Part shown: positions 13,945 to 60,188 of the stretch, one piece after another | Layout of the letters: each line of letters starts with the position of its first letter | How positions within the stretch are numbered: the stretch's first letter is position 1 | From: a virus | IMG/VR virus record: IMGVR_UViG_3300042566_001051 | Coordinates: 1 to 64,000 of that record | Direction: 5' to 3' (one strand) | DNA length: 64,000 nucleotides | Notes under the pieces: generated by a model | Told to the model about the DNA's origin: nothing | Seen by the model: only the letters and a program-made list of their open reading frames with translations | Database searches by the model: none | Program-made: the position numbers and the translations under genes

Positions 13945-14478
13945 ATGGCACAGAAAACCGAGTTGACCGCAGCATTGCTCCGGGAACTGTTCGACTACGG
14001 TACTGACACCGGCCTTTTCACGCGCAAGGTCAGCACGACCAACCGCGTGAAGGTTGGTGACGTAGCCGGCGCCAAAAACCAGAAGGGCTACATCAACATC
14101 ATGGTTTGCGGCAGGCTTCACCCGGCGCACCGTCTGGCGTGGCTGTACGTGCATGGGGTCTGGCCGCAAGGCCAGATTGACCATATCAACGGCATCCGGG
14201 ACGACAACCGCATCGGTAATTTGCGGGAAGCAACCAATGCCCAGAACAAGCAGAACATGCGAGCGGCACGGTCGGACAGCAAAACCGGCCTGCTCGGCGT
14301 CCGTTGGAATGATCGGCACCAGTGCTGGCAGTCCCGGATCATGGTGGATGGCAAGGGGCGGCATCTGGGCAACTTCGGCACCGCAGAGGACGCCCATGCC
14401 GCCTACCTGTCAGCCAAGCGCGAACTTCACGAATTCGGCGAAATCGCCAAGGCCGGGGCTTCCATGTCGGCATCGTAG
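13945..14478 (+). CDS. HNH-AP2 homing endonuclease
   Basis: AHRLAWLYVHG...IDHINGIRDDNRIGNLR; AP2-like C-terminus. Confidence 0.92.
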   Translation: MAQKTELTAALLRELFDYGTDTGLFTRKVSTTNRVKVGDVAGAKNQKGYINIMVCGRLHPAHRLAWLYVHGVWPQGQIDHINGIRDDNRIGNLREATNAQNKQNMRAARSDSKTGLLGVRWNDRHQCWQSRIMVDGKGRHLGNFGTAEDAHAAYLSAKRELHEFGEIAKAGASMSAS

Positions 14479-26011: not shown

Positions 26012-26018
26012 GCACGGC

Positions 26019-26060
26019 ATGGTATGCCGCGCGCAACAGCCCGATTGGCGAGGTTTTCCG
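26019..26060 (-). promoter_or_regulatory. Putative late promoter (CGGAAAA-N29-TACCAT) for darA-darB-ulx
   Basis: Intergenic copy; ATG at 26011 is 7 nt downstream of the -10. Confidence 0.65.
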
Positions 26061-26061
26061 C

Positions 26062-26553
26062 TTACGCAGCGGCGGTTTTGACCGCTGTCAGTCCAGATAT
26101 TTCGGAGCGGACGGCGGCAATCGCCGACTTCAGTGCGTCGCGCTTGTCGGTGAGAACCTGCTCCATTTTTGGCGCTGCCGTGCGGATGCCGGCGGGAGGC
26201 TTCACCTTGGCCGCTGCAAGAATCTTCTGGAACTTCGAGCGGCCGGCATCCATCGCCTGAACAATCTCAGCGATAGCCTTGACGTGATCGTCCTGATTCT
26301 TGATTGGCAGCACCTTGCCGTTCAGCAGCACTTGGAAAATGTCGCCGCTCTGCTTGATGCGCAGCACGACGGTCTGGGAGTCGGCAAAGGTGAGCGCCAT
26401 TTCGCGGTAGGTGACGCCGGATGATCGCTTGAGCGCGGACGGGATGTCCTGCTGCACGACGTTGGCGCCGGCGCGCGAGAAGTAGCGGATGGCTTGCTTG
26501 GCCGCCTTATCCTTGGCCGTCAGGTCTTCGAAGCTGAAAAGTAGATTCTTCAT
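26062..26553 (-). CDS. hdf: Hdf-like protein (DarA N-terminal family)
   Basis: LTFADSQTVVLRIKQSGDIFQVLLNGKVLP resembles the DarA-N motif; directly upstream of darA as in P1. Confidence 0.65.
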   Translation of the reverse strand: MKNLLFSFEDLTAKDKAAKQAIRYFSRAGANVVQQDIPSALKRSSGVTYREMALTFADSQTVVLRIKQSGDIFQVLLNGKVLPIKNQDDHVKAIAEIVQAMDAGRSKFQKILAAAKVKPPAGIRTAAPKMEQVLTDKRDALKSAIAAVRSEISGLTAVKTAAA

Positions 26554-26843
26554 TATGCGTTATCCTCACAAAAAACATCCGGGCTTCCAGTCATGCAGAA
26601 CGATCCGCAATCAACAGGATCGCCGATTCGCGCAAGGTCTAGGCCGTTTACAAAAACCGTTGGGCTACCTTTTGCCAGGTTTCCACCGTGACATGGCGGG
26701 CAGCAGTGAACTGCCCAATCGTCTGTTCGTCGGTGGATTCCCAGGCCGTTAACAAATACGTCCGCGCTGGCCTGGATGTTTGGCCGAGAAGGCCAGCAAC
26801 CGTGTCCGGTACAGATGTCGGTGTGCCTATGAACCGCCGGCAT
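26553..26843 (-). CDS. PAAR-domain spike tip
   Basis: MPAVHR.TD.CTGH, VFVNG twice, ARIGDPVDCGS. Confidence 0.92.
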   Translation of the reverse strand: MPAVHRHTDICTGHGCWPSRPNIQASADVFVNGLGIHRRTDDWAVHCCPPCHGGNLAKGSPTVFVNGLDLARIGDPVDCGSFCMTGSPDVFCEDNA

Positions 26844-27012
26844 CTTTGACAAGCTCCATGTAGCGGTCGTAAATCTTCGACCCCTCCATTGACGCCATCT
26901 GCATTGCCTCTGAGCGCACAACGGAATTCTTTTGACATACCGCCGTTTGCTCCATTGCGGCCGCAATTCGTTCGAGCGCAACAGCAACTCTCTCAATCAT
27001 CGCGTCGCTCAC
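26827..27012 (-). CDS. Small hypothetical protein
   Basis: Overlaps both neighbours in an operon-like way; GGGGAA RBS. Confidence 0.5.
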   Translation of the reverse strand: MSDAMIERVAVALERIAAAMEQTAVCQKNSVVRSEAMQMASMEGSKIYDRYMELVKDAGGS

Positions 27013-28475: not shown

Positions 28476-28859
28476 CTACACCGTTATGATGGGGCGAAAG
28501 AAGGCCCGGTGCGGTAGCTCCGCCTCGAACTGGAGAATATCTGCCGCCACCTCGCTTGAGGATCGCCCGAAAACATCCATGCCAAGGCCACGAGAAGCCT
28601 CAAGCTGCAATGCCGTCTCGCGTTCGACGTACAGCAGGAACAGCGGCCGAATCAGCGCCCATTCTGAGTTGCTGATTTCAGTGTCGCCAGAAACGTCAGG
28701 CGCAGGCGATACACCCGCATGGGCGCGCAGTTCTGCATACCCGGCATAGAGACGGGTTGCAGCCACGGCCTGAGCAAGAACGGAAGGCCCGTCCAGCAGA
28801 TTGCCAGCCGGGCGCTCGTTCGTTGCGAAGTTATCCGCTAGGGCGGAAAGAGTTGCCAT
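28476..28859 (-). CDS. Virion morphogenesis protein, unknown function
   Basis: Coupled ORF in the tail operon. Confidence 0.55.
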   Translation of the reverse strand: MATLSALADNFATNERPAGNLLDGPSVLAQAVAATRLYAGYAELRAHAGVSPAPDVSGDTEISNSEWALIRPLFLLYVERETALQLEASRGLGMDVFGRSSSEVAADILQFEAELPHRAFFRPIITV

Positions 28860-29359
28860 TACCGGTAGTCGCCGGAGTTACCAGGAACGACTTCGCCGAA
28901 GTAGTGGTAGAACAGCGTGCCGGAGAAGATCAGAATCTGGGAACGGTTCTCCCAATCGCGGTCTGGCGCGTCAAGCTGGATGAAGCAATCGACGATGCGC
29001 TTGGCCTTCAGGAACTTCTGAGGAGTGCCCTCGTAAATCTTGGCATTGAACGTGCCGCCCTTGGCGATCAGGCTGACCATCATGTTGTCGATGCTGCCAG
29101 CAACGGTCTCCATCATGGAAATCTGGCCCTGCTGCGCGATTTCGACTTGCTGCGGCTGCCACATTTTGGCGCCCATCGGCGTGGGAACTTCGATTTCACC
29201 AGCCGGAGAAATCTCAGGCCAAGGCGCCTGCTTGCACAGCAGGTAGTTCTGTTCGAAGCCCTCGATTTCGAACGTGAAGTCACTGGAAACAACCTTGGCG
29301 CCAAGCGCCTTGGTCGTGTCGTAAAAGCCTTTGAGGTAGGCGGCATTGGAAACGGTCAT
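28859..29359 (-). CDS. bplB: Tail tube protein (P1 BplB-like)
   Basis: YLKGFYD...GAKVVSSDF...METVAGSI resembles P1 BplB as recalled; strong RBS and its own promoter. Confidence 0.7.
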   Translation of the reverse strand: MTVSNAAYLKGFYDTTKALGAKVVSSDFTFEIEGFEQNYLLCKQAPWPEISPAGEIEVPTPMGAKMWQPQQVEIAQQGQISMMETVAGSIDNMMVSLIAKGGTFNAKIYEGTPQKFLKAKRIVDCFIQLDAPDRDWENRSQILIFSGTLFYHYFGEVVPGNSGDYR

Positions 29360-29703
29360 GGCATGTCCTTTCGGTGAATAGGTTGCTTCCCTGCACTGTA
29401 TTGCACGGCATTTGGCTCAATCGGCGTGTTTTCCGGGCCTTCCTGGCAGGACTTGACGGCCGCCTCAAGCTCGGTTTCGTATCCCTGGCGCTGGCTTCGC
29501 TCGGCGCGCAAGGCTTTCATCTGCTCCCATATTCCTGAGCCGACAGGGAGCGAATCAACGGCAAGCGCAGGGCGATCAGGAATCGCCACCTTGCACGGAA
29601 CTGGTACGGGCACAAGAACCTCTTGAACCTTTGGGGCCGTGGATACGCACCCAGACAGTGCCACGGCCATCACGATGGCTATTGCAAACATGCGCATAGT
29701 CAC
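29356..29703 (-). CDS. o-spanin (Rz1-like lipoprotein)
   Basis: Lipobox LSGC, Pro-rich VPVPVPC. Confidence 0.8.
   Translation of the reverse strand: MTMRMFAIAIVMAVALSGCVSTAPKVQEVLVPVPVPCKVAIPDRPALAVDSLPVGSGIWEQMKALRAERSQRQGYETELEAAVKSCQEGPENTPIEPNAVQYSAGKQPIHRKDMP
29395..29435 (-). promoter_or_regulatory. Putative late promoter (CGGAAAA-N28-TACAGT) for the tube operon
   Basis: Shared motif 36 nt upstream of the tube ATG. Confidence 0.6.
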
Positions 29704-30131
29704 TTTCCTCTCTCTTCTCTAAGTTCGATGTCGAACGCCTCTCGTGCAGCAGTGCATTCGTCTGTTCCAGGCGGCAATTTGAGGCCCATGATGGCCGTTG
29801 CTTTGCTCTTGAATGCGGATGACTCGGCCTTTGCCTTGGCAATGGCGATGTCCGCCAGGCGCTGGCGCTCTGCCGAATCGGCGCGCAGCTTGTTGATGGC
29901 GTCGTTCTGGCGCTGCGTTGCGCCGACCAGTGCGTTGTAGGCCGTCTCAAATTCAGTAGCGCGATCCTCGGCGGCCTTCGCCCGCATCTCTAGCTTCTCA
30001 ATCTTTGGCTGGTAATAGGCTTGCGTGGCCTTGTGGCCTCCCCATGCGCCGGCTCCGGCGATAACGGCGACGGCCGCCAGCCATAACAGCCAGCGGTACG
30101 GGGCTGGGATAAGCGCGCTTGCGATGCTCAT
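29700..30131 (-). CDS. i-spanin (Rz-like)
   Basis: N-terminal TM helix, coiled coil, C-terminal Cys; upstream of the lipoprotein. Confidence 0.8.
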   Translation of the reverse strand: MSIASALIPAPYRWLLWLAAVAVIAGAGAWGGHKATQAYYQPKIEKLEMRAKAAEDRATEFETAYNALVGATQRQNDAINKLRADSAERQRLADIAIAKAKAESSAFKSKATAIMGLKLPPGTDECTAAREAFDIELREERGK

Positions 30132-30517
30132 TTCACGGACTCCGGTAGGTCGGGAAGCGGTACGGTTTGGCCTGCCAGCTCGTGCGTGCAGTCGCTCAAG
30201 AACTGGATTTGGCCGTTGGTGACAAATGAATGGCAGATGCCGCACGGCCAAGGCCACGGCCCCTCGTCCGGGTATCGTTCTTGGTAATCGCAGGCGCAAT
30301 CACCGGGCTGCTGGCCTGGGTTGCAGTAATGCCCGGTTCGCACCAGCACGGACGGCGTGAAAGTCGGATTATCGGCGTTGCCGTTGTAAGTCCAGCCAGG
30401 CCCAGCGCCGTCGCCAATGCGAATCGTGTGAGTGTCCTTGCAGCCTGGGCAGTAGAACGCCACGCGGCCGCCTTCGACGGTGCGTAGCTTGCTGGAAATG
30501 GCGCCCATGTCAGCCAT
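30128..30517 (-). CDS. Cys/His-rich protein in the lysis cassette (DUF6527-like)
   Basis: FYCPGC...WTYNGN...PTFTPSVL...CHSFVTNGQIQFLSDCTH. Confidence 0.75.
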   Translation of the reverse strand: MADMGAISSKLRTVEGGRVAFYCPGCKDTHTIRIGDGAGPGWTYNGNADNPTFTPSVLVRTGHYCNPGQQPGDCACDYQERYPDEGPWPWPCGICHSFVTNGQIQFLSDCTHELAGQTVPLPDLPESVK

Positions 30518-31001
30518 CCCCAAGGCACTGCCGGCACTCTTCATGCCGGCGCTTTGCCAGCCCGCCGCAGAGGCGAGCATTCTCAGGCGCTGCGCAGTTC
30601 TTCCCTTGGAAATATGTCCAGCGCAGAATTTCTCCGCATGCCCCCTTGTAGTCGCCGGCGTTCAGTTTCTTGACGATCCCAGACCGGCAGAATGCAGCGG
30701 AGCCGACGTTGTAGGAGAAGCCGACAAAGGCGTCGTACTCGTGTTGGTGAAGCGGGACGGTGACGCATTGCTTCAGCGCCCCCTCGAACTTCTGCACATC
30801 GGTCAGTGCGCGCGCCAGGGCCTTGGGCGGTGTAATCGTGTCGCCCATCTTGACGCCGCCGGTCGTGCCAAAGCCGATTGTCGGGACATCGCCCTTGACC
30901 GGGATGACGGCGCGTTCGGTGTAGCCCTCTTGCATGACGATCCCCACCAAGGCGGCAGCGGATAGGGTCAGCGCGGCAAGCGCATTGCGTGGCCGGTTCA
31001 T
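30510..31001 (-). CDS. SAR endolysin, GH24 lysozyme
   Basis: Weakly hydrophobic N-terminus; E-x10-D-x5/6-T-type catalytic region (QEGY...GDVPTIGFGTT); FSYNVG; GLAKRR. Confidence 0.92.
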   Translation of the reverse strand: MNRPRNALAALTLSAAALVGIVMQEGYTERAVIPVKGDVPTIGFGTTGGVKMGDTITPPKALARALTDVQKFEGALKQCVTVPLHQHEYDAFVGFSYNVGSAAFCRSGIVKKLNAGDYKGACGEILRWTYFQGKNCAAPENARLCGGLAKRRHEECRQCLGDG

Positions 31002-31207
31002 TGGTGCATCCTCGGCTGGGAGACGACGCGGGCGACTGCGGCGCCGACGACGGCAACAAACGATAGGGAGGCGAAGAGATTTCGCGGCAGCACGTCGATA
31101 AACAACGGCAAGACAACTTCAGCCCCGGAGAGCATGGCGGCAATGATGGAAAGGCGAATGCTCCACGCCCGGCGGGCGATGCGCTTCCAGTCGGGCAAAA
31201 GTTCCAT
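30998..31207 (-). CDS. Putative holin (two TM segments)
   Basis: DWKRIARRAWSIRL followed by two hydrophobic helices; abuts the endolysin. Confidence 0.65.
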   Translation of the reverse strand: MELLPDWKRIARRAWSIRLSIIAAMLSGAEVVLPLFIDVLPRNLFASLSFVAVVGAAVARVVSQPRMHQ

Positions 31208-40453: not shown

Positions 40454-41229
40454 AGGTCGCGCTCCCCATTGACGACGTATGGCCTGACGACGACGGAGCC
40501 GCCGTTATCACCGCTCTCCATGCTCTCGGCGTTGATTTCCTGCACAAGCGGATAGCCTGCCGGGTCTGCCGTGCCTGGCGTGCCCTTGCCGTCGTTCGGC
40601 TGCCCCTCGGCAGGCGCGTCGAACAGCGGGATTTCGGCCTTCAGGGTGATGTCAATGGCGAGGATGGTGAGATTCTTCGCCTCGGTCTGGATTGACATGG
40701 CCGGAGCGTCCGGCGACTCGACCTGTACCGGCCAATCCATCGGCTCGCCGGCGAAGTTGTATCGCGCCGTGAATCGTCGATTCGGCACGGCATCAAGGAA
40801 CAGCAGGAACTGAGCGGCAATGGAGCGGGCGGACGGCTCGTCATGGGCGAATATGCAAATCTGCGCCCGGATGTCACCGGCGACGGCGCGAACACCGAAA
40901 ACGCGCTCCTTGTCATCGCCGGGAATCATGACCATGACAGATTCAGCTACCTGGCGGGTGAAGTCTCGCCCTGTCGGCGTGTAATCCTTGGCCATTGCAA
41001 CGATGATGACTGGCATGTTCGCCGGCTTGGTTGCGGCGCTGTCCGTGTCGTTACGCTGCCAGCTTGAAAGCATGTCCTCGGCCGCGTCGATCATCCTGGA
41101 CGGCGCCCAAACAACACTCTTTGCCAGGCCGCGCGTGACGTACCCCTCCAATGCTTTGGTGGTTGGCACGATGGAGGCGTAAAAGCCCCCCATGTATTCG
41201 CCGAACGCGGCTTTGACTGGCTGGAGCAT
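40450..41229 (-). CDS. Tail terminator/completion protein candidate (P1 gp24-like)
   Basis: Size, NMPVIIVA motif, late operon. Confidence 0.45.
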   Translation of the reverse strand: MLQPVKAAFGEYMGGFYASIVPTTKALEGYVTRGLAKSVVWAPSRMIDAAEDMLSSWQRNDTDSAATKPANMPVIIVAMAKDYTPTGRDFTRQVAESVMVMIPGDDKERVFGVRAVAGDIRAQICIFAHDEPSARSIAAQFLLFLDAVPNRRFTARYNFAGEPMDWPVQVESPDAPAMSIQTEAKNLTILAIDITLKAEIPLFDAPAEGQPNDGKGTPGTADPAGYPLVQEINAESMESGDNGGSVVVRPYVVNGERDL

Positions 41230-41235
41230 TGGTAG

Positions 41236-42072
41236 TTACCGGGTGAATTTGCCCAACAGGCGGTCGTATAGCGGCGAGGAAGGCGCGGCATCTTCTGCCG
41301 GAGCGACGAAGGTGGGCAGATCGGCAGCCCGGAACAGCTTGGCGTCTCGGCTGATCCGGTCGGCGGAGCTGATCGAAACCGCTACCGGCAGAATTGATGC
41401 AGCATCAAGGACGGCAGATGGCTCAATGCCCTTCTTGGCGAGCATCGAGAGAAGCTGCTCGTTTTCCGATTGCAGGCGCTCAATCACGGCGCTCGTCGCG
41501 GAGCGCTCCGCATTGATGTTGTCCAGAATGGCGATCACGGCCTGAGCCTGCTCATCTTGCTCCGCCGCGTAAATGTCGTCGTAAGTCAGCGCGCCAACAT
41601 TCCCGCCCATCGCATCATCCAGTGCGATTCCACGGAATGAATTGTTCAGGTAGTTGGGCTGGGCAACATAGTCAAACCCGTAGAACTCCGGGCGAGACTG
41701 ATCTATCGCCGATGAAAACCCGCCCACCTTCTCTTCCCATAATTTGGCAGCAAGGCGGCCCGCTGCCGTATCGAGGAACTGGGCGCGGTGCTCAACGTTT
41801 CCGTCGTAGTCCGCCTTCAGGTAGGTGGTAACAATGGCCGGCTCGACCGGAGCATACTTACCGCCCTCGATACCGCCTTCGACTGGGGCCATGCCATAGC
41901 GGACGCGCGGAAGGTGCCCATAGAAGCCCAGCATCCCGCGCGACGCGACCATTTCCTGACACGCTGGGCCGTTGATGGCGTCACAAATGGCCTTAATGTT
42001 GAAATTACGATGCTGGCCGGTATGTTGCCGGCCGCGATCCTTGAGGTTGTAGCGGATAACCGGGGTTTCCAT
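41236..42072 (-). CDS. Prohead protease (P1 Pro / T4 gp21-like)
   Basis: LGFYGH, GGFSSA and GFDYVAQPNY catalytic motifs; AAGGAG RBS. Confidence 0.85.
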   Translation of the reverse strand: METPVIRYNLKDRGRQHTGQHRNFNIKAICDAINGPACQEMVASRGMLGFYGHLPRVRYGMAPVEGGIEGGKYAPVEPAIVTTYLKADYDGNVEHRAQFLDTAAGRLAAKLWEEKVGGFSSAIDQSRPEFYGFDYVAQPNYLNNSFRGIALDDAMGGNVGALTYDDIYAAEQDEQAQAVIAILDNINAERSATSAVIERLQSENEQLLSMLAKKGIEPSAVLDAASILPVAVSISSADRISRDAKLFRAADLPTFVAPAEDAAPSSPLYDRLLGKFTR

Positions 42073-42104
42073 CGTGCGAACTCCTTGTGAATAGGTGCTC
42101 GCAC

Positions 42105-42146
42105 AATCTTCGCACTCCACTACATGCCAATCATTGCCATTTTCCG
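42105..42146 (-). promoter_or_regulatory. Putative late promoter (CGGAAAA-N29-AAGATT) for the protease operon
   Basis: Shared motif overlapping the HNH 3' end; -10 is weak. Confidence 0.45.
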
Positions 42147-42827
42147 CGCTTGCACCGCTTCATCCAGGGTATCGAACGTGCCGACGCAAACTTGCCTGCC
42201 GCCCTTGGTGTAGTAGGCGCGGAACCGGCCTCTGCGCACCCATACGCCCGGCTCACCCGTGCCTTTCTTGCGCTCAAGTCGCTCCGGTATGGCGGAAGGC
42301 TCTTCAAGCGTGCCGAATGGGTGCGTATCACGCTTGGCCTTCAGGTATGCAGCCTCTGCCTCTTCTGCTGTTGCGTAGCTGCCAAGGTATTTCCGCTTGC
42401 CGCCGGACTGGATCATCACGACGAACCGGCCCCGCTTGGTCAGGCTTACCCCAAGGATTCCAGCCTTGTTGTTCCAGTGCGCCTTGCGCTGGTTTTGAAG
42501 GTTCTCATCCCTGAGAGCTTTTCGCAGGTTTGCGATCCGGTTGTCAGCCTTGTTGCCGTTGATGTGGTCAAGCTCTACGGGCCACTCGCCGTAGTAATGG
42601 AGCCAAGCGAGTTGATGGGCTTGGTATCGTCTGCCGAATAATGCGATGCGGACATAGCCTGTGGATGACACTCCGCCGGCATCGGCCCCTGATTTTGCGG
42701 CACCCATGCTTTTCAGCCAGACGAACCTACCTGTATCGGGACAGTACCCAAGCGTCTTGCGCAAGACTTCTGCGGTCAACGTTAATTTATCGTCGAAAGT
42801 CGGCGCTGGCGGGACAGTGGTTTTCAT
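42120..42827 (-). CDS. HNH homing endonuclease with two AP2-like domains
   Basis: AHQLAWLHYYG...LDHINGNKADNRIANLR; YLGSYATAEEA and CVGTFDTLDEA. Confidence 0.92.
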   Translation of the reverse strand: MKTTVPPAPTFDDKLTLTAEVLRKTLGYCPDTGRFVWLKSMGAAKSGADAGGVSSTGYVRIALFGRRYQAHQLAWLHYYGEWPVELDHINGNKADNRIANLRKALRDENLQNQRKAHWNNKAGILGVSLTKRGRFVVMIQSGGKRKYLGSYATAEEAEAAYLKAKRDTHPFGTLEEPSAIPERLERKKGTGEPGVWVRRGRFRAYYTKGGRQVCVGTFDTLDEAVQARKMAMIGM

Positions 42828-43042
42828 TTACCGTTCGATACATCAGGCCACGGCTCGTTTCGCAGCAGGTAGTTTTGCTCAAAGCCTTCGATTTTGAAGG
42901 TGAAGTCGCTCGGAATGTCTCTTGGCTCAATGGCTTTGATTGAGTCGTAAAATCCTTTTAGATAAAGGTAATTTGGCGACTTTCTGTTGGCAAAAATATC
43001 TAATAGCCGCTTGTTTCTGCGATTTTGTTTGGCTCGTTTCAT
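42824..43042 (-). CDS. Small protein carrying a diverged copy of the tail tube N-terminus
   Basis: YLKGFYD..KA......SDFTF.IEGFEQNYLL...PWP matches 28859-29359; 4-bp overlaps with both neighbours. Confidence 0.7.
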   Translation of the reverse strand: MKRAKQNRRNKRLLDIFANRKSPNYLYLKGFYDSIKAIEPRDIPSDFTFKIEGFEQNYLLRNEPWPDVSNGK

Positions 43043-43506
43043 TTTTCGCCCCGCCTGTTGCTAGCAAGAAAACTTTTCCCGCTGCTTACAGTTGCCTCGA
43101 CATCACGAAGTTGCCTAACCGTAATAAATTCGCTTCCATTCCCAAAAACAACAACAGAATCATCGGCACTCTCAAGATGTCCATTTAGAAATCTCGCAAA
43201 TGGCCCCATGACCTCAATCGCTGTTGCGTAGTTTTCATTGGCAATCGCAACAGCCCTTGAAAGCTCCGATTTTTGTCGTTCCTGGTCAGCCTGCATGCTG
43301 TCATAAAAATTCCCTTCTATGACTTCATAGTGTCTGCTCTCCAACAGATCAATAGCTGATTTGACTTGGCTATCTGGAGCGTTGATGAACATTGAAACCG
43401 CTCGCCTGATTAGCTCGCTTACCGGAACCCCTGTTTCGAGCGACATGGTTTTCAGCGCATCAAGCATGGGCTGAGGATAGTAGAAGTTCGTGCGCTTCAT
43501 TTTCAT
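43039..43506 (-). CDS. Ribbon-helix-helix regulator with C-terminal extension
   Basis: MKRTNFYYPQPMLDALKTMSLETGVPVSELIRRAV. Confidence 0.8.
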   Translation of the reverse strand: MKMKRTNFYYPQPMLDALKTMSLETGVPVSELIRRAVSMFINAPDSQVKSAIDLLESRHYEVIEGNFYDSMQADQERQKSELSRAVAIANENYATAIEVMGPFARFLNGHLESADDSVVVFGNGSEFITVRQLRDVEATVSSGKSFLASNRRGEK

Positions 43507-43766
43507 TCTTTGCTTTCTTTGCGCTCTTTTAAGTCGTTGGGCGTCTTCGCGCGCTTTGCGATCATGCGAAGTATCTTCTTCCCGTACTTGTATTTTAGTC
43601 TCCAAAACGTGTCCTTATCTGCATCACTAATGAGGCCGCCTTTGTCCACGCACGCATCGCAAATCGAAATCCAAGCATTACACCACTCGTCATTTTGTCC
43701 AGATCCCTCCCAGAACGAAATGATATTTTCAATCTCGTTACCTGTAAGTTCTTTTATTTCACTCAT
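43503..43766 (-). CDS. Hypothetical protein (AT-rich cassette)
   Basis: First ORF after the cassette promoter; 4-bp overlap with the RHH gene. Confidence 0.6.
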   Translation of the reverse strand: MSEIKELTGNEIENIISFWEGSGQNDEWCNAWISICDACVDKGGLISDADKDTFWRLKYKYGKKILRMIAKRAKTPNDLKERKESKE

Positions 43767-43795
43767 TTTTCATCCAGTCTCTCTTAACATCCCGC

Positions 43796-43826
43796 TTAAT
43801 ATGTGCCATATCATAGCACATATTAA
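43796..43826 (-). promoter_or_regulatory. Palindromic operator over an extended -10 promoter
   Basis: TTAATATGTGC-N9-GCACATATTAA; TGC-TATGAT on the - strand. Confidence 0.6.
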
Positions 43827-45331
43827 ACGTCGGCAAACAAGCTCTCGGCACGAGACACAACGCTTTCTGCCAGGCTTCCGCTGAACCCGGCCCCACCCTC
43901 GCAAATCATGTAGGTGGCGTCCTCAAGGAACATGAAGCAGATCGCATCGAACAAGTCAGGCGACGGCAGGCCCATCTTCCGCATTTCGTCCTTCCGCTCG
44001 ATCACGTAGCGCGCTTTCTCGTCAAAGTGGAACGGAACCCGGCTCATCTGATCCAATAGCTCTTTCACCCACGGGCCGTCGGCAATACCAAGCCGCCCCT
44101 CCTTGGCGGCCCGCGCGGCATGCACCATCGCTTGCGCCCGCAGGTTGAAAAACCGCTCCTTGTTGCGCTGCTTGAAGCATGGCGCTCCCCATTTCACGCG
44201 CTTAACCTCTGGCAGCCCCATGCTTTCCAGCGCCTGGCAGACAGCAACGCCCATGCCGCCGGCGTCAACCAGCGTCGTGACGTTCTCCAATTCGCTTGCC
44301 GTATTGAAGATCGCCCCGGAAAAGTCTTGCAGGTTGCGCGTATTGGAATTGATCGGCACGCCTACAATCTGAACGCGGCGAGCGTCCGGCCCAAAATCGC
44401 TATGCCCTGTCACATGAGCGACAATGGCGACGGACTTGTCGCGGTACTCCCCAGCCCCCACGTCGCACGAAAGCATGATGCCGTAGCTTTCCCCTTGCTG
44501 AATTACCTTGCGCCCGATGCAGGCTTCGGCGGCCTTTCTGCCCAGCAGGTAGTCATCACGCGACTCGGGGAATTCGCCTAGCACCTTGATGGTGTATTCC
44601 TCTTCGGTGTATTCCTGCTTCTTTTCCTCGATGAAAGCCTTGGAAACCAGCGGCGAATCGTTCGAATCCATGCGTATCGCGTTCCATACACCGCCGTTGT
44701 GCATCGCCAGCTTGTTGTGGGTGTCGTAGAAGAACCCGGACGGTCTGGTGGGCTGCGAAAGCATCAGCATCCGGTTTCTGGCGTCCGTCAGCGCGCCCGT
44801 GATAACGGCGTAGTTCGGGTCTGGGATGCCGGATGCCTCGTCGGCAATCACCAGATACCAATCCCGGTGCATGCCGGCCAGATTCTCAGGGTTTCCGCGC
44901 GGCGCCGTCTTGGCGAAGACGAACCATGTCTGCTTGAAGCCCTTCACATAGACGCGCTCCGCCTCAAATGTGACGTAATCAGCAATCCACGACTGCCCGC
45001 CCTTGCTTCGGATCAGGTCAAGCACATCGGCCATTTCCTTCCATGCCACGTTGCGCACCTGTTCGATCTTCGGCGCGGTAATCATCGTGTTGGATTTCGG
45101 GTAGCACAACAGATGCCACAGGGCGATAACGGCCAATGATCGAGACTTTCCTGAGCCGTGGCCGCTTCGAACGGATGTCCGACTGCCTGGCGGAGATACC
45201 GAATCCAGCAATTCAAGCTGCTGGTGGGTCGGCATCATCCCGACCACCTCGGCGGCAAACCTCGCCAGGCTGAATGCGTACCTTGCGGCAAACGGTAGAT
45301 AGCGCGGGTCATCAAGCAGCCTCATTGCCAT
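43823..45331 (-). CDS. Terminase large subunit (P1 PacB-like)
   Basis: SGHGSGKS Walker A, VIADEASG Walker B, SCDVGAG, SPDLFDA. Confidence 0.95.
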   Translation of the reverse strand: MAMRLLDDPRYLPFAARYAFSLARFAAEVVGMMPTHQQLELLDSVSPPGSRTSVRSGHGSGKSRSLAVIALWHLLCYPKSNTMITAPKIEQVRNVAWKEMADVLDLIRSKGGQSWIADYVTFEAERVYVKGFKQTWFVFAKTAPRGNPENLAGMHRDWYLVIADEASGIPDPNYAVITGALTDARNRMLMLSQPTRPSGFFYDTHNKLAMHNGGVWNAIRMDSNDSPLVSKAFIEEKKQEYTEEEYTIKVLGEFPESRDDYLLGRKAAEACIGRKVIQQGESYGIMLSCDVGAGEYRDKSVAIVAHVTGHSDFGPDARRVQIVGVPINSNTRNLQDFSGAIFNTASELENVTTLVDAGGMGVAVCQALESMGLPEVKRVKWGAPCFKQRNKERFFNLRAQAMVHAARAAKEGRLGIADGPWVKELLDQMSRVPFHFDEKARYVIERKDEMRKMGLPSPDLFDAICFMFLEDATYMICEGGAGFSGSLAESVVSRAESLFADV

Positions 45332-45908
45332 CGGTAGCGCCCCGCTCCTTGCGCACAGCCTCGCGCATTTCCTCCGACTTCTTCATTGCCTGCGCAAACA
45401 TGGCGTCAAGCTCATCCAGCGTTGCCACGCCGCTTGAGTTGTCCTCGGCAATGGCGTCCAGCCCCCACGCCTTGCGCTCGCCTTCCTGTCTGATCTTGAT
45501 GGCCTCAGCCGCCGTCTTCGCCACGCGGGCAACGCCAAGCCCATCCTCGCCCAGCATGTCCTTCAACGTGAATAGCCGGCGATGGTCGCCCCATTCCTCG
45601 CGGTGCTTCTCGATCACGTCGGCGCGCAGATCAACCGACTCTGATTCAGTTAGCGGACTAACTTTCCCGCTAACTTTGCGACTAACTTTCTCGTCAGCCT
45701 TGGCCTGGGCGCGTTCAACAATGGTCTTGAGACTGGCCTTCTTAGCCCATCCTTCCTTGCGGGCGCGCTTGAGAACGGCAACGTCAGAGACGGACAAATT
45801 CATTTCCGTCACGATCCATGTGTAGCCGTCTCGCGGGTCGGTTTCCCACTTGGCGCGAATCCCGGCCCACTCTTCGGGAGACATTCGTTTTTTGGTCGTC
45901 GTGGTCAT
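45312..45908 (-). CDS. Terminase small subunit
   Basis: N-terminal HTH (AVLKRARKEGW), IRQEGERKAWGLD; directly upstream of terL. Confidence 0.8.
   Translation of the reverse strand: MTTTTKKRMSPEEWAGIRAKWETDPRDGYTWIVTEMNLSVSDVAVLKRARKEGWAKKASLKTIVERAQAKADEKVSRKVSGKVSPLTESESVDLRADVIEKHREEWGDHRRLFTLKDMLGEDGLGVARVAKTAAEAIKIRQEGERKAWGLDAIAEDNSSGVATLDELDAMFAQAMKKSEEMREAVRKERGATDGNEAA
45658..45689. repeat. Three CTAACTTT repeats at 12-bp period inside terS (pac-site candidate)
   Basis: 45658, 45670, 45682. Confidence 0.6.
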
Positions 45909-45930
45909 TTCTGCAACCTCTCTCAGATCG

Positions 45931-46548
45931 TCAGATCGTCAGGCTTAGTTGATTCGTGTCGGCGGCGGCGATGGAGCATTCAAGCCGGAACCGCGTCATC
46001 TTTGCCTTGGCGTTCTTGGCGGCATCGGCAGCGCGCCCGATTGATCCGGTCAGCCTGCTACCGGCTTTCATGTCCTCGAATTCAGGGTTGAGCTCAATGA
46101 ACCGTTCCAGGGCGGCGCCGGTCTCGTCAGAAGCAGCGAGCATCGTGGCAATCGCCTCTTCCATTGCCTCCACCTTGTTGTGCAATTTTCGCAAGGTCTC
46201 CATGTCTCGCCGGCGGGCCTTTTCCCACGTATCGAACAGCCACGCGGAGGTTTCGCGCTCCTGGGTCATGCGGGAGCCAGCCTCCCAGTCATCCGAACAG
46301 CCAAAAAGGTAGTCGATTGAAACCTCATACACGCTGGCGGCGCGCACGATCAGCCACAAGGGGACAGAGTTGGTATCGGTTGCCCATTCCACCTTGGAGA
46401 GCTTCGATGGATTCGAGTACCCAAGCCGACGGGCTGCCGCGCTCTGGGACATGTTGCACAGTTCGCGGGCCTCTCTCATCCGGGCGCCGATGGTTTTCAC
46501 CACGGCCGCCTGTTCGATTCGAGTTGATGAAGGTTTCTTCTCTGGCAT
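45931..46548 (-). CDS. XRE-family HTH regulator with coiled coil (late activator candidate)
   Basis: IGARMREARELCNMSQSAAARRLG...YEVSIDYLFG. Confidence 0.8.
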   Translation of the reverse strand: MPEKKPSSTRIEQAAVVKTIGARMREARELCNMSQSAAARRLGYSNPSKLSKVEWATDTNSVPLWLIVRAASVYEVSIDYLFGCSDDWEAGSRMTQERETSAWLFDTWEKARRRDMETLRKLHNKVEAMEEAIATMLAASDETGAALERFIELNPEFEDMKAGSRLTGSIGRAADAAKNAKAKMTRFRLECSIAAADTNQLSLTI

Positions 46549-51096: not shown

Positions 51097-51990
51097 ATGC
51101 CAGCCAAACCACTCACGCCAGAGCAACAGGGTGACGCACAGCGCCTCATGGCCATCTTCGAAGAGCACAAGACCAAGCACGGCCTGACGCAGGCAACGCT
51201 TGCGGATGACCTTGGCTACTCGGTGCAAAGCTCTGTCAGCCAGTACCTGAAAGGAAAAATCCCGCTGAACGTTGAAGCGGCGGTGAAATTTGCAGGCCGT
51301 TTCGGGTGCGCAGTTTCTGAGTTCAGTCCATCAATTCAAAAAGAAATTGACAGGATTGCCGGTTTTTCAACCAAGTCAGGAGACGCAGGGAGGCGCAAAT
51401 TGACTGATTTTGAGAAAGAAAAAGAAAACGCAACCAAACTAAATCAGCAAATTGAAAATGATCGCCGCGCCATTGATGAGTATCTTGTGGCCGGCATGCC
51501 GGACGCTAAATTGATAGATGGTGAATTTAGCGTTGTTTCGGCGAACGATGATTTTGTTAGGTTTGAAATCTACGACGTGAGAATGTCAGCAGGGCCTGGC
51601 GCAGAGCAGGTAGCTCACCCTGATATGGTTGAGTACCTACCGGTTTTGAAAGAATGGGCGAACGAGAACCTTGGCACTACCGATCACAATCGGATAAAGC
51701 TGGTAACGTGCTCAGGGGTAAGCATGCAGCCAACAATTGACGACGGATCGCTGATGTTTGTTGATGTCACTGTCAAAAACTACCGTGGCGACGGGCTGTA
51801 TTGCCTTGCATTTAGAGACGGGCTGATCGTGAAAAGGCTGGTTGCCGACGTGAAAAGCCGTCGAATTCGCCTTGTCTCGGACAACCCTGATAAGACGAAT
51901 TATCAAGATCAAATCATTGAGCCTGACGAAGAGGATAGACTCACGATTATTGGTCAGGTGAAGAGGTGGTTCAAAACATGCAAGCCATGA
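51097..51990 (+). CDS. cI: CI-like repressor (HTH plus S24 peptidase)
   Basis: HTH (LTQATLADDLG...VSQYLKG), SAGPG cleavage site, GVSMQP, IVKRL. Confidence 0.95.
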   Translation: MPAKPLTPEQQGDAQRLMAIFEEHKTKHGLTQATLADDLGYSVQSSVSQYLKGKIPLNVEAAVKFAGRFGCAVSEFSPSIQKEIDRIAGFSTKSGDAGRRKLTDFEKEKENATKLNQQIENDRRAIDEYLVAGMPDAKLIDGEFSVVSANDDFVRFEIYDVRMSAGPGAEQVAHPDMVEYLPVLKEWANENLGTTDHNRIKLVTCSGVSMQPTIDDGSLMFVDVTVKNYRGDGLYCLAFRDGLIVKRLVADVKSRRIRLVSDNPDKTNYQDQIIEPDEEDRLTIIGQVKRWFKTCKP

Positions 51991-52745
51991 AAATAGCTGG
52001 TTTTTTGGCATTGATAACGGCAGCCGTCCCGTCGGTTGCTTTTGCCGATATTGGCGGCACATATTCAAAGAAAAACTCTATTGCTGAAATAAAGCAGCAG
52101 GGAAAATCTGTTGAGTTCTCAATCAATTCGTCAGCCAACCAAGGCGCCTGCGAATTAGAGGGTGTGGCGGCGATGATCGACGAAAACCGTGCCGCCTACA
52201 CATCGGGAGAAGGTTCCGACAAATGCGTTGCCGTACTTAATTTTTCAGGCGGTCAGCTTGTCGTGACAACCAAGGGGTGCGAAGGCTATTGCGGATTGAA
52301 TGCGGCCGGATCAATGGACGGAACATACAAGACGAGCAAGGGCGCAAATTCGGCGCCTCAAGGGGCCCTCGTGAGTGACGATAAGGCTTTTGCTATCGCT
52401 GGAGATATGTACAAGGCGTACCGATATGGCGGAGCAAGCGAGATGCTTGCAATTGAGAATTCATGCTGGAGCGCCCTTCACAAGCAAGGCAAGAAGAACG
52501 AGGCTGGCGCCGCCTCTTGTTCGGTTGCTGGGCTTTCAGGCGCCTTCGTAGAAGGAACCATTGCCAGAAGCCAGCGCAGGTCTCCAACCCCGATCTACAG
52601 CGGTGATGGGGTAAGAGGGAGAATACTGAAGAACATGGCTAAGGCTGGAATCGACGAGGCCCAGGCGCAACAGATTCTCGAAACATCGGTTCAGACAAAG
52701 CAAGGATCGATACTCTCCGGGCTATCAGCCGCTGGGATGCGGTAA
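51987..52745 (+). CDS. Exported/periplasmic protein co-transcribed with cI
   Basis: Signal peptide MKIAGFLALITAAVPSVAFA; six Cys; ATGA overlap with cI. Confidence 0.75.
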   Translation: MKIAGFLALITAAVPSVAFADIGGTYSKKNSIAEIKQQGKSVEFSINSSANQGACELEGVAAMIDENRAAYTSGEGSDKCVAVLNFSGGQLVVTTKGCEGYCGLNAAGSMDGTYKTSKGANSAPQGALVSDDKAFAIAGDMYKAYRYGGASEMLAIENSCWSALHKQGKKNEAGAASCSVAGLSGAFVEGTIARSQRRSPTPIYSGDGVRGRILKNMAKAGIDEAQAQQILETSVQTKQGSILSGLSAAGMR

Positions 52746-55039: not shown

Positions 55040-55528
55040 ATGGCCCGCCCTGCAATCGAAATCAACACGGCAGCAATCGCCTGCATGTACTCAGCAGGCA
55101 AGCCGGCGTGCGAGATAGCGGAAGAAATTGGCGTTTCGACGCAAACCGTTCTCCGCCGGCTGAAGGCCGCCGGGATGCACGTCAAGCCGCAGGGCGAGCG
55201 AATGCGCGGGACGACTTCAAAGCCAGAATTCGTTGGCCCTGCCCTGCCGCGAGGCGCCCGCAACTCGATCAACAAGCTGGGTTCTTCCGGTTTGAGCAGT
55301 CAAGGCTATGTCCGCATCAACACCGGTTCGCGCAAGCGCCAATACGAGCATGTCCTGAAAGCAGAAAAGGCGCTTGGGCGGCGCCTAAAACCCGGCGAGG
55401 TCGTGCATCACATCAACTGCGACCGAACCGATAACCGAAGTGAAAACCTGCTTGTGTGCTCGCACAAGTACCACCTCCAACTCCACGCCAGGATGCGTCG
55501 CAACGACTACTGGCGCCAATTCAACTGA
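55040..55528 (+). CDS. HTH-HNH endonuclease
   Basis: YEHVLKAEKALGRRL...VVHHINCDRTDNRSENL. Confidence 0.88.
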   Translation: MARPAIEINTAAIACMYSAGKPACEIAEEIGVSTQTVLRRLKAAGMHVKPQGERMRGTTSKPEFVGPALPRGARNSINKLGSSGLSSQGYVRINTGSRKRQYEHVLKAEKALGRRLKPGEVVHHINCDRTDNRSENLLVCSHKYHLQLHARMRRNDYWRQFN

Positions 55529-59337: not shown

Positions 59338-59652
59338 ATGACTCGATACTGCACGCAATACGGCGCCTATGAAATTGATAGCGTGCCAGGCCAACCCCAG
59401 CTTGCACACTGCCACGGCTTCTTTGTGGCACCGGAACATCGCGGCAAAGGGATTGGGCACTTCCTGAAGCAAGAGCAGATGCAGATGCTGGCATCGCTTC
59501 GCTACGACGCCGCAACTTGCACGGTCGACGGCGGGAATGCAGCCCAAAAGCGGGTTCTTGAAAAGGCTGGCTGGGCGAAAGTCGGCGGATTCAAGAACGG
59601 GAAAACAGGCGCTTTGACTGAGGTCTGGTTTTGGGAAGTTGGTTCGACATGA
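59338..59652 (+). CDS. GNAT acetyltransferase
   Basis: FVAPEHRGKGIG; NAAQKRVLEKAGW. Confidence 0.85.
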   Translation: MTRYCTQYGAYEIDSVPGQPQLAHCHGFFVAPEHRGKGIGHFLKQEQMQMLASLRYDAATCTVDGGNAAQKRVLEKAGWAKVGGFKNGKTGALTEVWFWEVGST

Positions 59653-60188
59653 GCGCCGTATCGCCAGCGCCGACTTTTGACGAAAAATCCACGTTGACCG
59701 TAGAAGTCCTGCGCAACCTCATGAGCTACGACGCGGAAACCGGGATTTTCACCTGGAGAGGGAAGCCGAATGGCAGGGTTGCCCACGGCGCACAAGCCGG
59801 GACGCTGCTGCCGGATGGTTACGTCAGGATCAAGCTGCGCCGCAAGCTCTACCTCGCCCACCGGCTGGCATGGTTTTACGTGCATGGCGTCTGGCCGGAA
59901 AACGAGATTGACCACATCAACCGAACCCGCTCTGACAACCGCATCGCCAATCTTCGAGAGGCGACCAAATCAGAGAACCTTCAAAACCAGATTTCCGCCC
60001 AGCGCCACAACACCACGAGCAAGTTGCTTGGGGCGAGTTGGCACGAAGGCTGCCAAAAGTGGCAGGCGCAAATCTACATCAACGGGAAAGCCAAGTATCC
60101 AGGGCTATTCAAAACCAAGGAAGAGGCGCACGCCGCCTACCTTGCTGCGAAACGCGAACTGCACCCGTTCAGCACCATTGAGGATTGA
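59649..60188 (+). CDS. HNH-AP2 homing endonuclease
   Basis: AHRLAWFYVHG...IDHINRTRSDNRIANLR. Confidence 0.92.
   Translation: MSAVSPAPTFDEKSTLTVEVLRNLMSYDAETGIFTWRGKPNGRVAHGAQAGTLLPDGYVRIKLRRKLYLAHRLAWFYVHGVWPENEIDHINRTRSDNRIANLREATKSENLQNQISAQRHNTTSKLLGASWHEGCQKWQAQIYINGKAKYPGLFKTKEEAHAAYLAAKRELHPFSTIED

What the first reader, a model, noticed from the sequence alone, without database searches (positions are those of the whole stretch)
42824..43826. Self-regulated AT-rich cassette encoding a mimic of the phage's own tail-tube N-terminus
Seen: the 72-aa ORF matches tube residues 8-51 at 28/44 positions (DNA 42836-42964 vs 29207-29338). 13 of the 28 identical residues use different codons and the only indel is in frame. 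It is translationally coupled behind an 87-aa gene and an RHH regulator, under an 11-bp-arm palindrome covering an extended -10. Inference: the pattern fits protein-level conservation or capture from a related phage. A truncated tube subunit could poison tail polymerisation of superinfecting relatives or act as a decoy for host sensors of tail proteins. This is the best candidate here for an undescribed system, but it may be a recombination relic.
Basis: partly seen in the sequence, partly recalled or inferred. Interest (0 to 1): 0.75.

Follow-up and report, generated by a model that had tools for sequence, protein, structure and literature searches.

The report
Tail-tube gene fragment in homing-endonuclease cassette
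A temperate phage carries a foreign 1.75-kb insertion whose third small gene is a real, diverged copy of the first third of a tail-tube gene, but the evidence favours a fragment carried along with a mobile homing-endonuclease cassette over a purpose-built tube mimic.

Summary
The 72-aa ORF (43042-42824, minus strand) matches residues 5-51 of the phage's own tail tube at 29/47 positions (E 3e-20). The tube is distantly related to phage P1 BplB. Thirteen identical residues use different codons. The only indel is in frame. ATGA overlaps link orf87, the RHH gene, orf72 and the next gene. A 17-nt-arm palindrome covers TGCTATGAT.

The block 43822-42073 is an insertion between the large terminase and the next head gene. 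The two closest relatives lack it. Ten related viral records, some 60 further tube loci of relatives and the protein searches show no second tube copy.

The orf72 family has five intact members in two lineages. Both share a basic 19-23-aa leader that no real tube carries. A 53-aa tube/orf72 chimera also exists. One variant of the cassette joins the RHH gene directly to the HNH gene without orf72.

Best reading (0.5): a captured tube fragment, translated as a coupled leader ORF ahead of the endonuclease. A functional tube-derived protein remains possible (about 0.25).

The parts
43793..43829 (.). Near-perfect palindrome (17-nt arms, 3-nt centre) directly after and overlapping the TerL stop codon. 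Candidate operator of the RHH protein.
   Evidence: I1, 88% complementary; the 11-nt half-site is unique in the window at 0 mismatches; as RNA it folds into a 17-bp hairpin, z -3.6
43810..43818 (-). Extended -10-like element TGCTATGAT at the centre of the palindrome. Candidate cassette promoter.
   Evidence: read from the sequence. The two-hexamer consensus scan did not flag it, so it is a candidate only.
43503..43766 (-). orf87, an orphan 87-aa protein and first gene of the AT-rich cassette.
   Evidence: no Pfam, PHROG, PADLOC or NCBIfam family above threshold; no usable Atlas hit; one 99% variant, P0028
43039..43506 (-). 155-aa ribbon-helix-helix protein. Its ATG overlaps the orf87 stop (ATGA).
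   Evidence: Pfam RHH_3 29.7 bits and RHH_1 22.8 bits, both above their cut-offs; Arc-like repressor PHROGs; relatives share only the first ~40 residues
42974..43042 (-). orf72 leader: 23 basic codons (MKRAK...RKSP) with no counterpart in any tube protein or tube upstream region. Its ATG overlaps the RHH stop.
   Evidence: The leader is shared with P0012, with a 4-codon in-frame indel. No similarity to 47 tube upstream regions.
42824..42973 (-). orf72 tube-like part: equivalent of tube codons 5 to about 55, then a stop that overlaps the HNH start (ATGA).
42120..42827 (-). 235-aa HNH_3 + AP2 free-standing homing-endonuclease-type gene, last gene of the insertion.
   Evidence: Pfam HNH_3 E 3.7e-13 and AP2 E 1.7e-10; phrog_99 E 1e-63; PADLOC HEase; paralogues elsewhere in the window
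28859..29359 (-). Resident full-length tail-tube gene (166 aa), the paralogue of the fragment.
   Evidence: phrog_1120 E 4e-46; PDB 8jan phage P1 BplB E 1e-5
43823..45331 (-). Large terminase subunit, upstream border of the insertion.
   Evidence: 82% and 78% identical homologues in L025 and L026
41236..42072 (-). 278-aa head-module protein (phrog_30560), downstream border of the insertion. In relatives it follows TerL directly.

Best explanation
Block 43822-42073 is a foreign, mobile insertion in the late operon of a temperate myovirus whose tail tube is distantly related to phage P1 BplB. It consists of a candidate promoter and operator, orf87, an RHH regulator, orf72 and an HNH-AP2 homing endonuclease. 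All four ORFs are chained by ATGA stop/start overlaps. orf72 is a piece of another phage's tail-tube gene (codons 5 to about 55) that was captured by illegitimate or endonuclease-stimulated recombination and travels with the cassette. It is probably translated, but mainly as a coupled leader ORF that delivers ribosomes to the endonuclease start. What is kept is the open frame, not a tube-like function. Shown: the homology, the insertion, the gene overlaps, the adjacent endonuclease, the rarity and the variants. Inferred: the capture mechanism, RHH autoregulation at the palindrome, and translation only as a leader.
For: 1. The block is an insertion. In L026 the TerL stop is followed within 17 nt by the start of the 278-aa homologue. 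L025 has a different 220-bp spacer at that place. Homology to both resumes at about 42072.
2. The tube homology runs up to the ATG of an HNH_3+AP2 endonuclease. This phage has at least two further paralogues of that endonuclease. One of them (59.6 kb) also overlaps the stop of its upstream gene by ATGA.
3. The 5' ends of the two paralogues share an 89% identical 55-nt patch. In three natural HNH variants the first ~50 residues vary, with indels, while the rest is nearly invariant in the alignment. The orf72/HNH junction is therefore a recombination-prone zone.
4. A contig in run X6 joins 43049 to 42782 through 27 other letters. As I read those letters, the RHH stop then overlaps a TTG start of a shortened HNH, with no orf72. 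The cassette therefore exists without orf72.
5. The fragment is rare. Only five leader-bearing sequences turned up in searches of 5.8 and 1.8 billion proteins. There is no second copy in 10 related viral records, in the roughly 70 tube loci of relatives held here, IMG/VR, metagenome and GTDB together, or in cultured phages and plasmids.
6. Tube-type constraint looks relaxed. orf72 departs at 3 of 17 near-invariant tube columns (G20E, K22R, E31K), whereas real tubes depart at 2 at most, and it has lost one codon. Two of the six polymorphisms in the tube part fall on near-invariant columns, roughly as expected at random.
7. The fragment is cut inside a domain. By the HMMER alignment to P1 BplB and the published structure (PMC10304247), it covers the N-terminal rim helix and the first sandwich strands and stops where the beta-hairpin begins. 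P0012 stops even earlier, at codon 41, and ends in GGRK before its stop. That is what differently truncated remnants would look like.
Against: The frame is intact in all five family members. These span two lineages that are only 55% identical, including a 4-codon in-frame indel in the leader, and the MKRAK start is kept. The ORF is neatly delimited by ATGA overlaps at both ends. Fourteen of 17 near-invariant tube residues are kept. The contigs of variants P0004 and P0005 (5.2 and 11.8 kb) do not appear among the contigs of the RHH, orf87, HNH or 278-aa clusters. orf72 may therefore also occur in other neighbourhoods, which would suit an independent gene. No donor arrangement was found: there is no tube gene with this leader, and no HNH or RHH next to a tube gene in roughly 70 loci of relatives.
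Confidence: 0.5

Rival explanations
1. orf72 is a functional small protein derived from the tube N-terminal domain: a basic leader, the rim helix and the first two strands. In this reading it is expressed from the RHH-controlled promoter, for example in lysogens. It could cap growing tubes or occupy the terminator or hairpin-plug interface of superinfecting relatives. Alternatively it could occupy host sensors of tube protein.
For: The open frame and the leader are kept across two diverged lineages. Translational coupling is tidy. The core tube motifs are retained. In P1 the N-terminal region of BplB forms the rim that receives the next ring's hairpin plug, and in the top ring it becomes a strand bound to the terminator (PMC10304247). 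The phage is temperate, with a CI/LexA-like repressor at 51097-51990, and relatives are classed as proviruses. Defences that block tail assembly exist: Tab (PMC10884400) and Tai (PMC11364771).
Against: There is no evidence of expression, folding or binding. The fragment ends inside the beta-sandwich. It differs from the resident tube at invariant positions. It is dispensable in one variant of the same cassette. It is extremely rare. No counter-measure that would protect the phage's own tail assembly is evident. There is no match to any defence family model.
Confidence: 0.25
2. The fragment matters as DNA. In this reading it is what remains of the endonuclease's former home in a tube gene. It still serves as a homology patch through which the HNH cassette and tube genes exchange sequence, by one-sided homing or gene conversion.
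For: P0002 (53 aa) is an exact chimera. Tube residues 1-41 are identical to the resident tube and the last 12 residues plus stop are identical to orf72. Exchange between the two copies therefore seems to occur in nature. The tube homology runs right up to the HNH start. The HNH 5' region is a recombination zone.
Against: The shared patch is only about 130 bp at 75% identity, with exact runs of 12 nt or less. There is no tube homology downstream of the HNH gene. No relative carries an HNH in or next to its tube gene. P0002 rests on a single 995-bp contig whose DNA could not be read. The HNH target is unknown.
Confidence: 0.1
3. orf87, RHH and orf72 form a toxin-antitoxin-like or other self-contained regulatory module, with the RHH protein acting as antitoxin and repressor. 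The tube similarity of orf72 would then be incidental to its role.
For: An RHH gene upstream of a small overlapping ORF, behind a palindromic operator, is the usual layout of type II modules. RHH relatives of the same length keep the DNA-binding domain (about 80% identity) but carry unrelated C-terminal domains.
Against: orf72 and orf87 match no toxin family. orf72 is clearly tube-derived. A cassette variant lacks orf72 but keeps the RHH gene and the HNH gene.
Confidence: 0.04

Closest known systems
Free-standing HNH homing endonuclease genes of phages (T4 mobE and seg genes; HEGs at boundaries of genetic exchange; PMC2988022, PMC2790892, PMC10448857)
   Same: An HNH-family endonuclease gene sits between conserved late genes and is absent from close relatives. 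Several paralogues occur in one genome. The flanks are foreign, and recombination breakpoints lie at the gene's edge.
   Different: Here the endonuclease is the last gene of a four-ORF translationally coupled string that has its own RHH gene and palindrome. The ORF directly upstream is a fragment of a structural gene that lies 13.5 kb away. Cleavage and homing were not tested.
Phage morons (AT-rich, self-promoted inserts between late genes)
   Same: GC content is lower than the backbone. The insert lies at a gene junction in the late operon and has a candidate promoter of its own.
   Different: No terminator was found. The cargo is a regulator, two orphan ORFs and an endonuclease, not a recognisable host-fitness gene.
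Tab and Tai tail-assembly-interference defences of prophages and satellites (PMC10884400, PMC11364771)
   Same: Only the hypothesised outcome is shared: a prophage-borne small protein that blocks tail assembly of other phages.
   Different: By its section heading, Tab activity targets the tail tape measure protein. Neither abstract describes Tab or Tai as derived from a tube gene. Both papers describe a counter-defence partner, and none is evident here. No functional data exist for orf72.
Phage P1 tail tube protein BplB (PDB 8jan) / phrog_1120
   Same: orf72 residues 24-69 are homologous to the N-terminal domain and first sandwich strands of this tube family.
   Different: Only about 50 of 166 residues are present. 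A basic 23-residue leader replaces the MTVS start. Three near-invariant residues are changed.

Membership tests
BplB-type tail tube protein (phrog_1120) | Significant sequence similarity to the family | tested here: met
   E 3e-20 to the resident tube; phrog_1120 E 0.002
BplB-type tail tube protein (phrog_1120) | Complete beta-sandwich with hairpin and O-loop (about 166 aa) | tested here: not met
   Only tube residues 5 to about 55 are present. The boundaries were mapped on BplB through.
BplB-type tail tube protein (phrog_1120) | Near-invariant N-terminal residues kept | tested here: inconclusive
   14 of 17 are kept. G20, K22 and E31 are changed, more than in any of 32 real tubes.
Free-standing HNH homing endonuclease (gene 42827-42120) | HNH nuclease domain plus a DNA-binding module | tested here: met
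   HNH_3 49.3 bits and AP2 41.4 bits, both above their cut-offs; phrog_99 E 1e-63
Free-standing HNH homing endonuclease (gene 42827-42120) | Present or absent at an otherwise conserved site in relatives | tested here: met
   L025 and L026 lack the block between TerL and the next gene
Free-standing HNH homing endonuclease (gene 42827-42120) | Site-specific cleavage of the endonuclease-free allele, followed by homing | not testable with these tools
   needs the enzyme and substrates
Ribbon-helix-helix (CopG/Arc/MetJ) repressor | RHH domain above the curated threshold | tested here: met
   RHH_3 29.7 bits against 21.6; RHH_1 22.8 bits against 20.5. The strand-helix-helix pattern also appears in a low-confidence model.
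Ribbon-helix-helix (CopG/Arc/MetJ) repressor | Binds an operator at its own promoter | not testable with these tools
   A palindrome is present. Binding was not shown.
Tab/Tai tail-assembly-interference systems | Blocks tail assembly of invading phage; paired counter-defence gene | not testable with these tools
   There is no functional assay. The PADLOC 2023 models give no hit, and that library predates both papers.
Type II toxin-antitoxin module | Recognisable toxin family downstream of the RHH antitoxin | tested here: not met
   orf72 and orf87 match no toxin family
Group I intron with an HNH ORF | Intron RNA structure around the endonuclease gene | tested here: not met
   Rfam search of 40500-46000 at E up to 1 found no intron family

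The most novel reading that the evidence does not exclude
The leader-plus-tube-N-domain ORFs (orf72 cluster and P0012) are a real, selected family of small phage proteins. In this reading they are made from the RHH-controlled promoter and act by subunit mimicry. They would cap tube polymerisation or occupy the terminator or plug interface of competing phages with this tube type, or blunt host sensors of tube protein. That would be a tail-assembly-interference or anti-sensing mechanism built from a truncated structural gene.
Probability: 0.2. Interest if true: 0.75.

Novelty: new variant of a known kind. Interest (0 to 1): 0.35.

Why it matters
If the fragment is a relic, the locus shows how homing-endonuclease cassettes carry pieces of structural genes between phages and seed short chimeric ORFs. 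It also shows why annotators should not read function into such pieces. The RHH-headed, fully overlapped endonuclease operon is itself an uncommon layout. If the peptide is functional, it would be a new route to tail-assembly interference or immune evasion, by a truncated subunit. It could be tested directly with a 72-codon clone.

Tried and rejected
- Complex prediction (tube x2 plus orf72, both as alignments) returned 'no answer' with score 0.01. It is neither support nor counter-evidence.
- The AlphaFold2 models of the RHH protein (pLDDT 45) and of the tube with 14 sequences (pLDDT 38) were too poor for fold searches. None was run.
The contigs of P0001, P0002, P0004, P0005 and P0012 could not be read, so no dN/dS on the family and no neighbourhoods.
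- Read laying on four wastewater runs gave contigs only, so depth cannot rank genes. The much lower summed depth over 43025-43625 than over the flanks is only a hint that most relatives lack the cassette. No contig joining TerL directly to the 278-aa gene was among the rows shown. The tube/orf72 joint expected from P0002 was not shown either. The runs labelled RNA are probably DNA, so expression remains untested.
- A group I intron around the HNH gene was rejected: no Rfam hit.
- The leader as a translated tube upstream region was rejected: no similarity to 47 upstream regions, best z 1.9.
- An HNH or RHH next to tube genes in relatives was not found. RHH, orf72 or tube next to 32 distant HNH homologues was not found.
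- orf87 has no family, no Atlas neighbour and no IMG/VR relative.
- Other short tube N-terminal proteins in the databases start with the normal MTVS. They either end at a contig end (P0023-P0026) or run into unrelated sequence after breakpoints scattered between residues 36 and 103 (P0013, P0015-P0018, P0020-P0022). I read them as contig-end or frameshift artefacts, not family members.

Full report
**What is there.** All genes concerned lie on the minus strand. In the direction of transcription the order is:
- TerL (45331-43823);
- a palindrome overlapping its stop codon;
- orf87 (43766-43503);
- a 155-aa ribbon-helix-helix protein (43506-43039);
- orf72 (43042-42824);
- a 235-aa HNH_3 + AP2 endonuclease (42827-42120);
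- a 278-aa head-module protein (42072-41236).

The three junctions orf87/RHH, RHH/orf72 and orf72/HNH are each an ATGA stop/start overlap. orf87, RHH and orf72 have 42-46% GC. TerL, the HNH gene, the 278-aa gene and the window as a whole have 58-60%.

The palindrome has 17-nt arms that are 88% complementary, with perfect 11-nt cores. It spans TGCTATGAT, an extended -10-like element. Its half-site occurs nowhere else in the window without a mismatch. The two-hexamer promoter scan did not flag the element, so the promoter is only a candidate.

**The tube similarity is real.** The resident tube (29359-28859, 166 aa) belongs to phrog_1120 (E 4e-46). It also matches the solved phage P1 tube protein BplB (8jan, E 1e-5). 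Its neighbours include a sheath, an Hdf-like protein and a PAAR-like protein. A CI/LexA-like repressor is also present. This is therefore a temperate myovirus, and its tube, and the Hdf-like protein, are of the kinds known from phage P1.

Relatives of the tube lie mostly in Burkholderiales, Rhodocyclales and some Gammaproteobacteria, many as proviruses.

orf72 residues 24-69 match tube residues 5-51 at 29/47 positions, E 3e-20. Thirteen of the 29 identities use different codons, and the single indel is one codon. Synonymous sites between the fragment and every tube examined are saturated (pS 0.6-1.0). dN to the nearest tubes, which come from low-GC relatives, is 0.16-0.18. The fragment is therefore not a recent copy of the resident gene. 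It is an old or foreign tube sequence, in line with its AT-rich setting.

**It sits in an insertion that ends in a homing endonuclease.**
- In the two closest viral relatives (TerL 82% and 78% identical) TerL is followed by the 278-aa homologue. The gap is 17 nt in L026, and L025 has an unrelated 220-bp spacer. DNA and protein homology to the window stops near the TerL stop and resumes at about 42072.
- The inserted 1.75 kb ends in an endonuclease of the phage HNH-AP2 type. The window holds at least two paralogues of it, at 59.6 kb and 14 kb.
- The 59.6-kb paralogue also overlaps its upstream gene by ATGA. It shares an 89% identical 55-nt patch with the 5' end of the gene studied here.
- In three natural variants of this HNH protein the first ~50 residues vary, with indels, while the rest is nearly invariant in the alignment.
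- The tube homology runs to within a few bases of the HNH start codon. The fragment therefore lies exactly at a recombination-prone edge of a mobile gene.

**How widespread is the fragment?**
- Searches of 5.8 billion clustered proteins and 1.8 billion representatives found only five sequences with the leader. They are the window's own, three 92-94% variants (all intact, eight variable positions in total), and P0012.
- P0012 is a 60-aa protein, 55% identical to orf72. It has the same MKRAK...SPNY leader with a 4-codon in-frame indel, and its tube part ends already at tube codon 41.
- No full-length tube carries the leader. The leader DNA resembles none of 47 tube upstream regions.
- A sixth sequence, P0002, is an exact chimera. 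Its first 41 residues are those of the resident tube, and its last 12 residues plus stop are those of orf72.
- The roughly 70 tube loci of relatives from IMG/VR, JGI metagenomes and GTDB genomes, ten whole related viral records, and cultured phages and plasmids show one tube gene each and no second fragment.

**Variants of the cassette.** Contigs of public wastewater runs were laid on the region.
- One contig from a study other than the source covers 43016-43462 with four differences. The RHH/orf72 junction therefore recurs outside the source sample.
- Another contig joins 43049 to 42782 through 27 other letters. As I read those letters, the RHH stop overlaps a TTG start of a shortened HNH gene and orf72 is missing.
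- A third joint removes orf87.
- RHH relatives of the same length share about 80% identity in the first 40 residues but have unrelated C-terminal domains.
- One of these relatives lies on a contig of the same length (1557 bp) as a 227-aa HNH variant. This is length evidence only.
- The 5.2-kb and 11.8-kb contigs that carry two orf72 variants do not appear among the contigs of the RHH, orf87, HNH or 278-aa clusters. Their neighbourhoods may differ.

**Weighing relic against function.**

For a relic or leader ORF:
- It lies next to the endonuclease and at an edge where recombination is visible.
- It is dispensable in a sister cassette.
- It is extremely rare.
- It is cut inside the tube's beta-sandwich. 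By the alignment to BplB and the published structure, the fragment holds the rim helix and first strands and stops where the hairpin begins.
- P0012 has a different and shorter 3' end.
- It departs at 3 of 17 near-invariant tube positions, more than any of 32 real tubes. Its polymorphisms fall on conserved and variable tube columns alike.

For a selected protein:
- The frame is open in all five members across two diverged lineages, with an in-frame indel.
- The start and the leader are conserved.
- The ORF has exact ATGA boundaries.
- It may occur in other contexts.

The open frame could also be kept simply because translation must end at the HNH start for coupling. The tube part could be refreshed by exchange with functional tubes, as P0002 suggests. 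I therefore put the relic/leader reading at about 0.5 and a functional tube-derived protein at about 0.25. A DNA-level role as a homology patch gets about 0.1 and a TA-like module about 0.04.

**Comparison with what is known.** The cassette works like a free-standing homing-endonuclease gene or a moron inserted at a late-gene junction (PMC2988022, PMC2790892, PMC10448857). Two things are unusual. It is a self-contained operon headed by an RHH gene and chained by overlaps. It also embeds a fragment of a structural gene. Neither abstract describes those proteins as tube-derived, and both systems come with counter-defence partners that are not seen here.

**Verdict.** This is best filed as a new variant of a known kind, a homing-endonuclease cassette carrying a captured tube fragment. 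Interest is moderate to low (0.35). There is a 0.2 chance of the more interesting reading, that the leader-plus-tube-N-domain ORFs are a selected family acting by subunit mimicry.

Noticed in passing
window 51097-52745 (+): The only other AT-rich island of the window (about 51200-52300, GC below 50%). It holds a CI/LexA-like repressor (phrog_4 E 1e-37, S24-type C-terminus) and an orphan 259-aa ORF, probably an exchanged immunity region. A 1-mismatch copy of the cassette's palindrome half-site lies at 52057-52067.
   Followed up: partly
window 59649-60188 (+), 13954-14445 (+), 55283-55450 (+): Further HNH-AP2 endonuclease paralogues (48%, 44% and a weak 41% identity). The 59.6-kb copy overlaps by ATGA the stop of an upstream 104-aa ORF. 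By eye that ORF looks acetyltransferase-like; this was not tested.
   Followed up: partly
proteins P0030-P0032 against window 42120-42827: Natural variants of the HNH protein differ almost only in the first ~50 residues (substitutions and 4- to 8-residue indels). The remaining ~185 residues are nearly invariant.
   Followed up: partly
window 29408-31207: Contigs from all four wastewater runs join about 29408 to about 31205. They skip or replace the 1.8 kb directly upstream of the tube gene, which holds the spanin-like ORFs and a 150-aa ORF. This is a second variable region of this phage population.
   Followed up: no
L030:5965-6141 (IMGVR_UViG_3300033485_000038): In an unrelated viral contig a short RHH protein with the same MKMKRTNFYYP start (73% identity over 37 residues) lies directly behind a large terminase gene. 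This RHH type may recur at terminase 3' ends.
   Followed up: no
L025:5056-5275: The closest relative has a different, AT-richer 220-bp spacer with a small reverse ORF at the TerL/head-gene junction. This junction looks like an insertion hot spot.
   Followed up: no
window 14869-26020 (-): Two adjoining giant ORFs of 2143 and 1575 aa lie downstream of the tail genes. They were not examined.
   Followed up: no
window 26062-26996 (-): An Hdf-like antirestriction homologue (phrog_1620 E 5e-40) lies next to a PAAR-motif protein (phrog_281 E 3e-32). Hdf is a phage P1 protein, which fits the distant P1 link of the tube.
   Followed up: no
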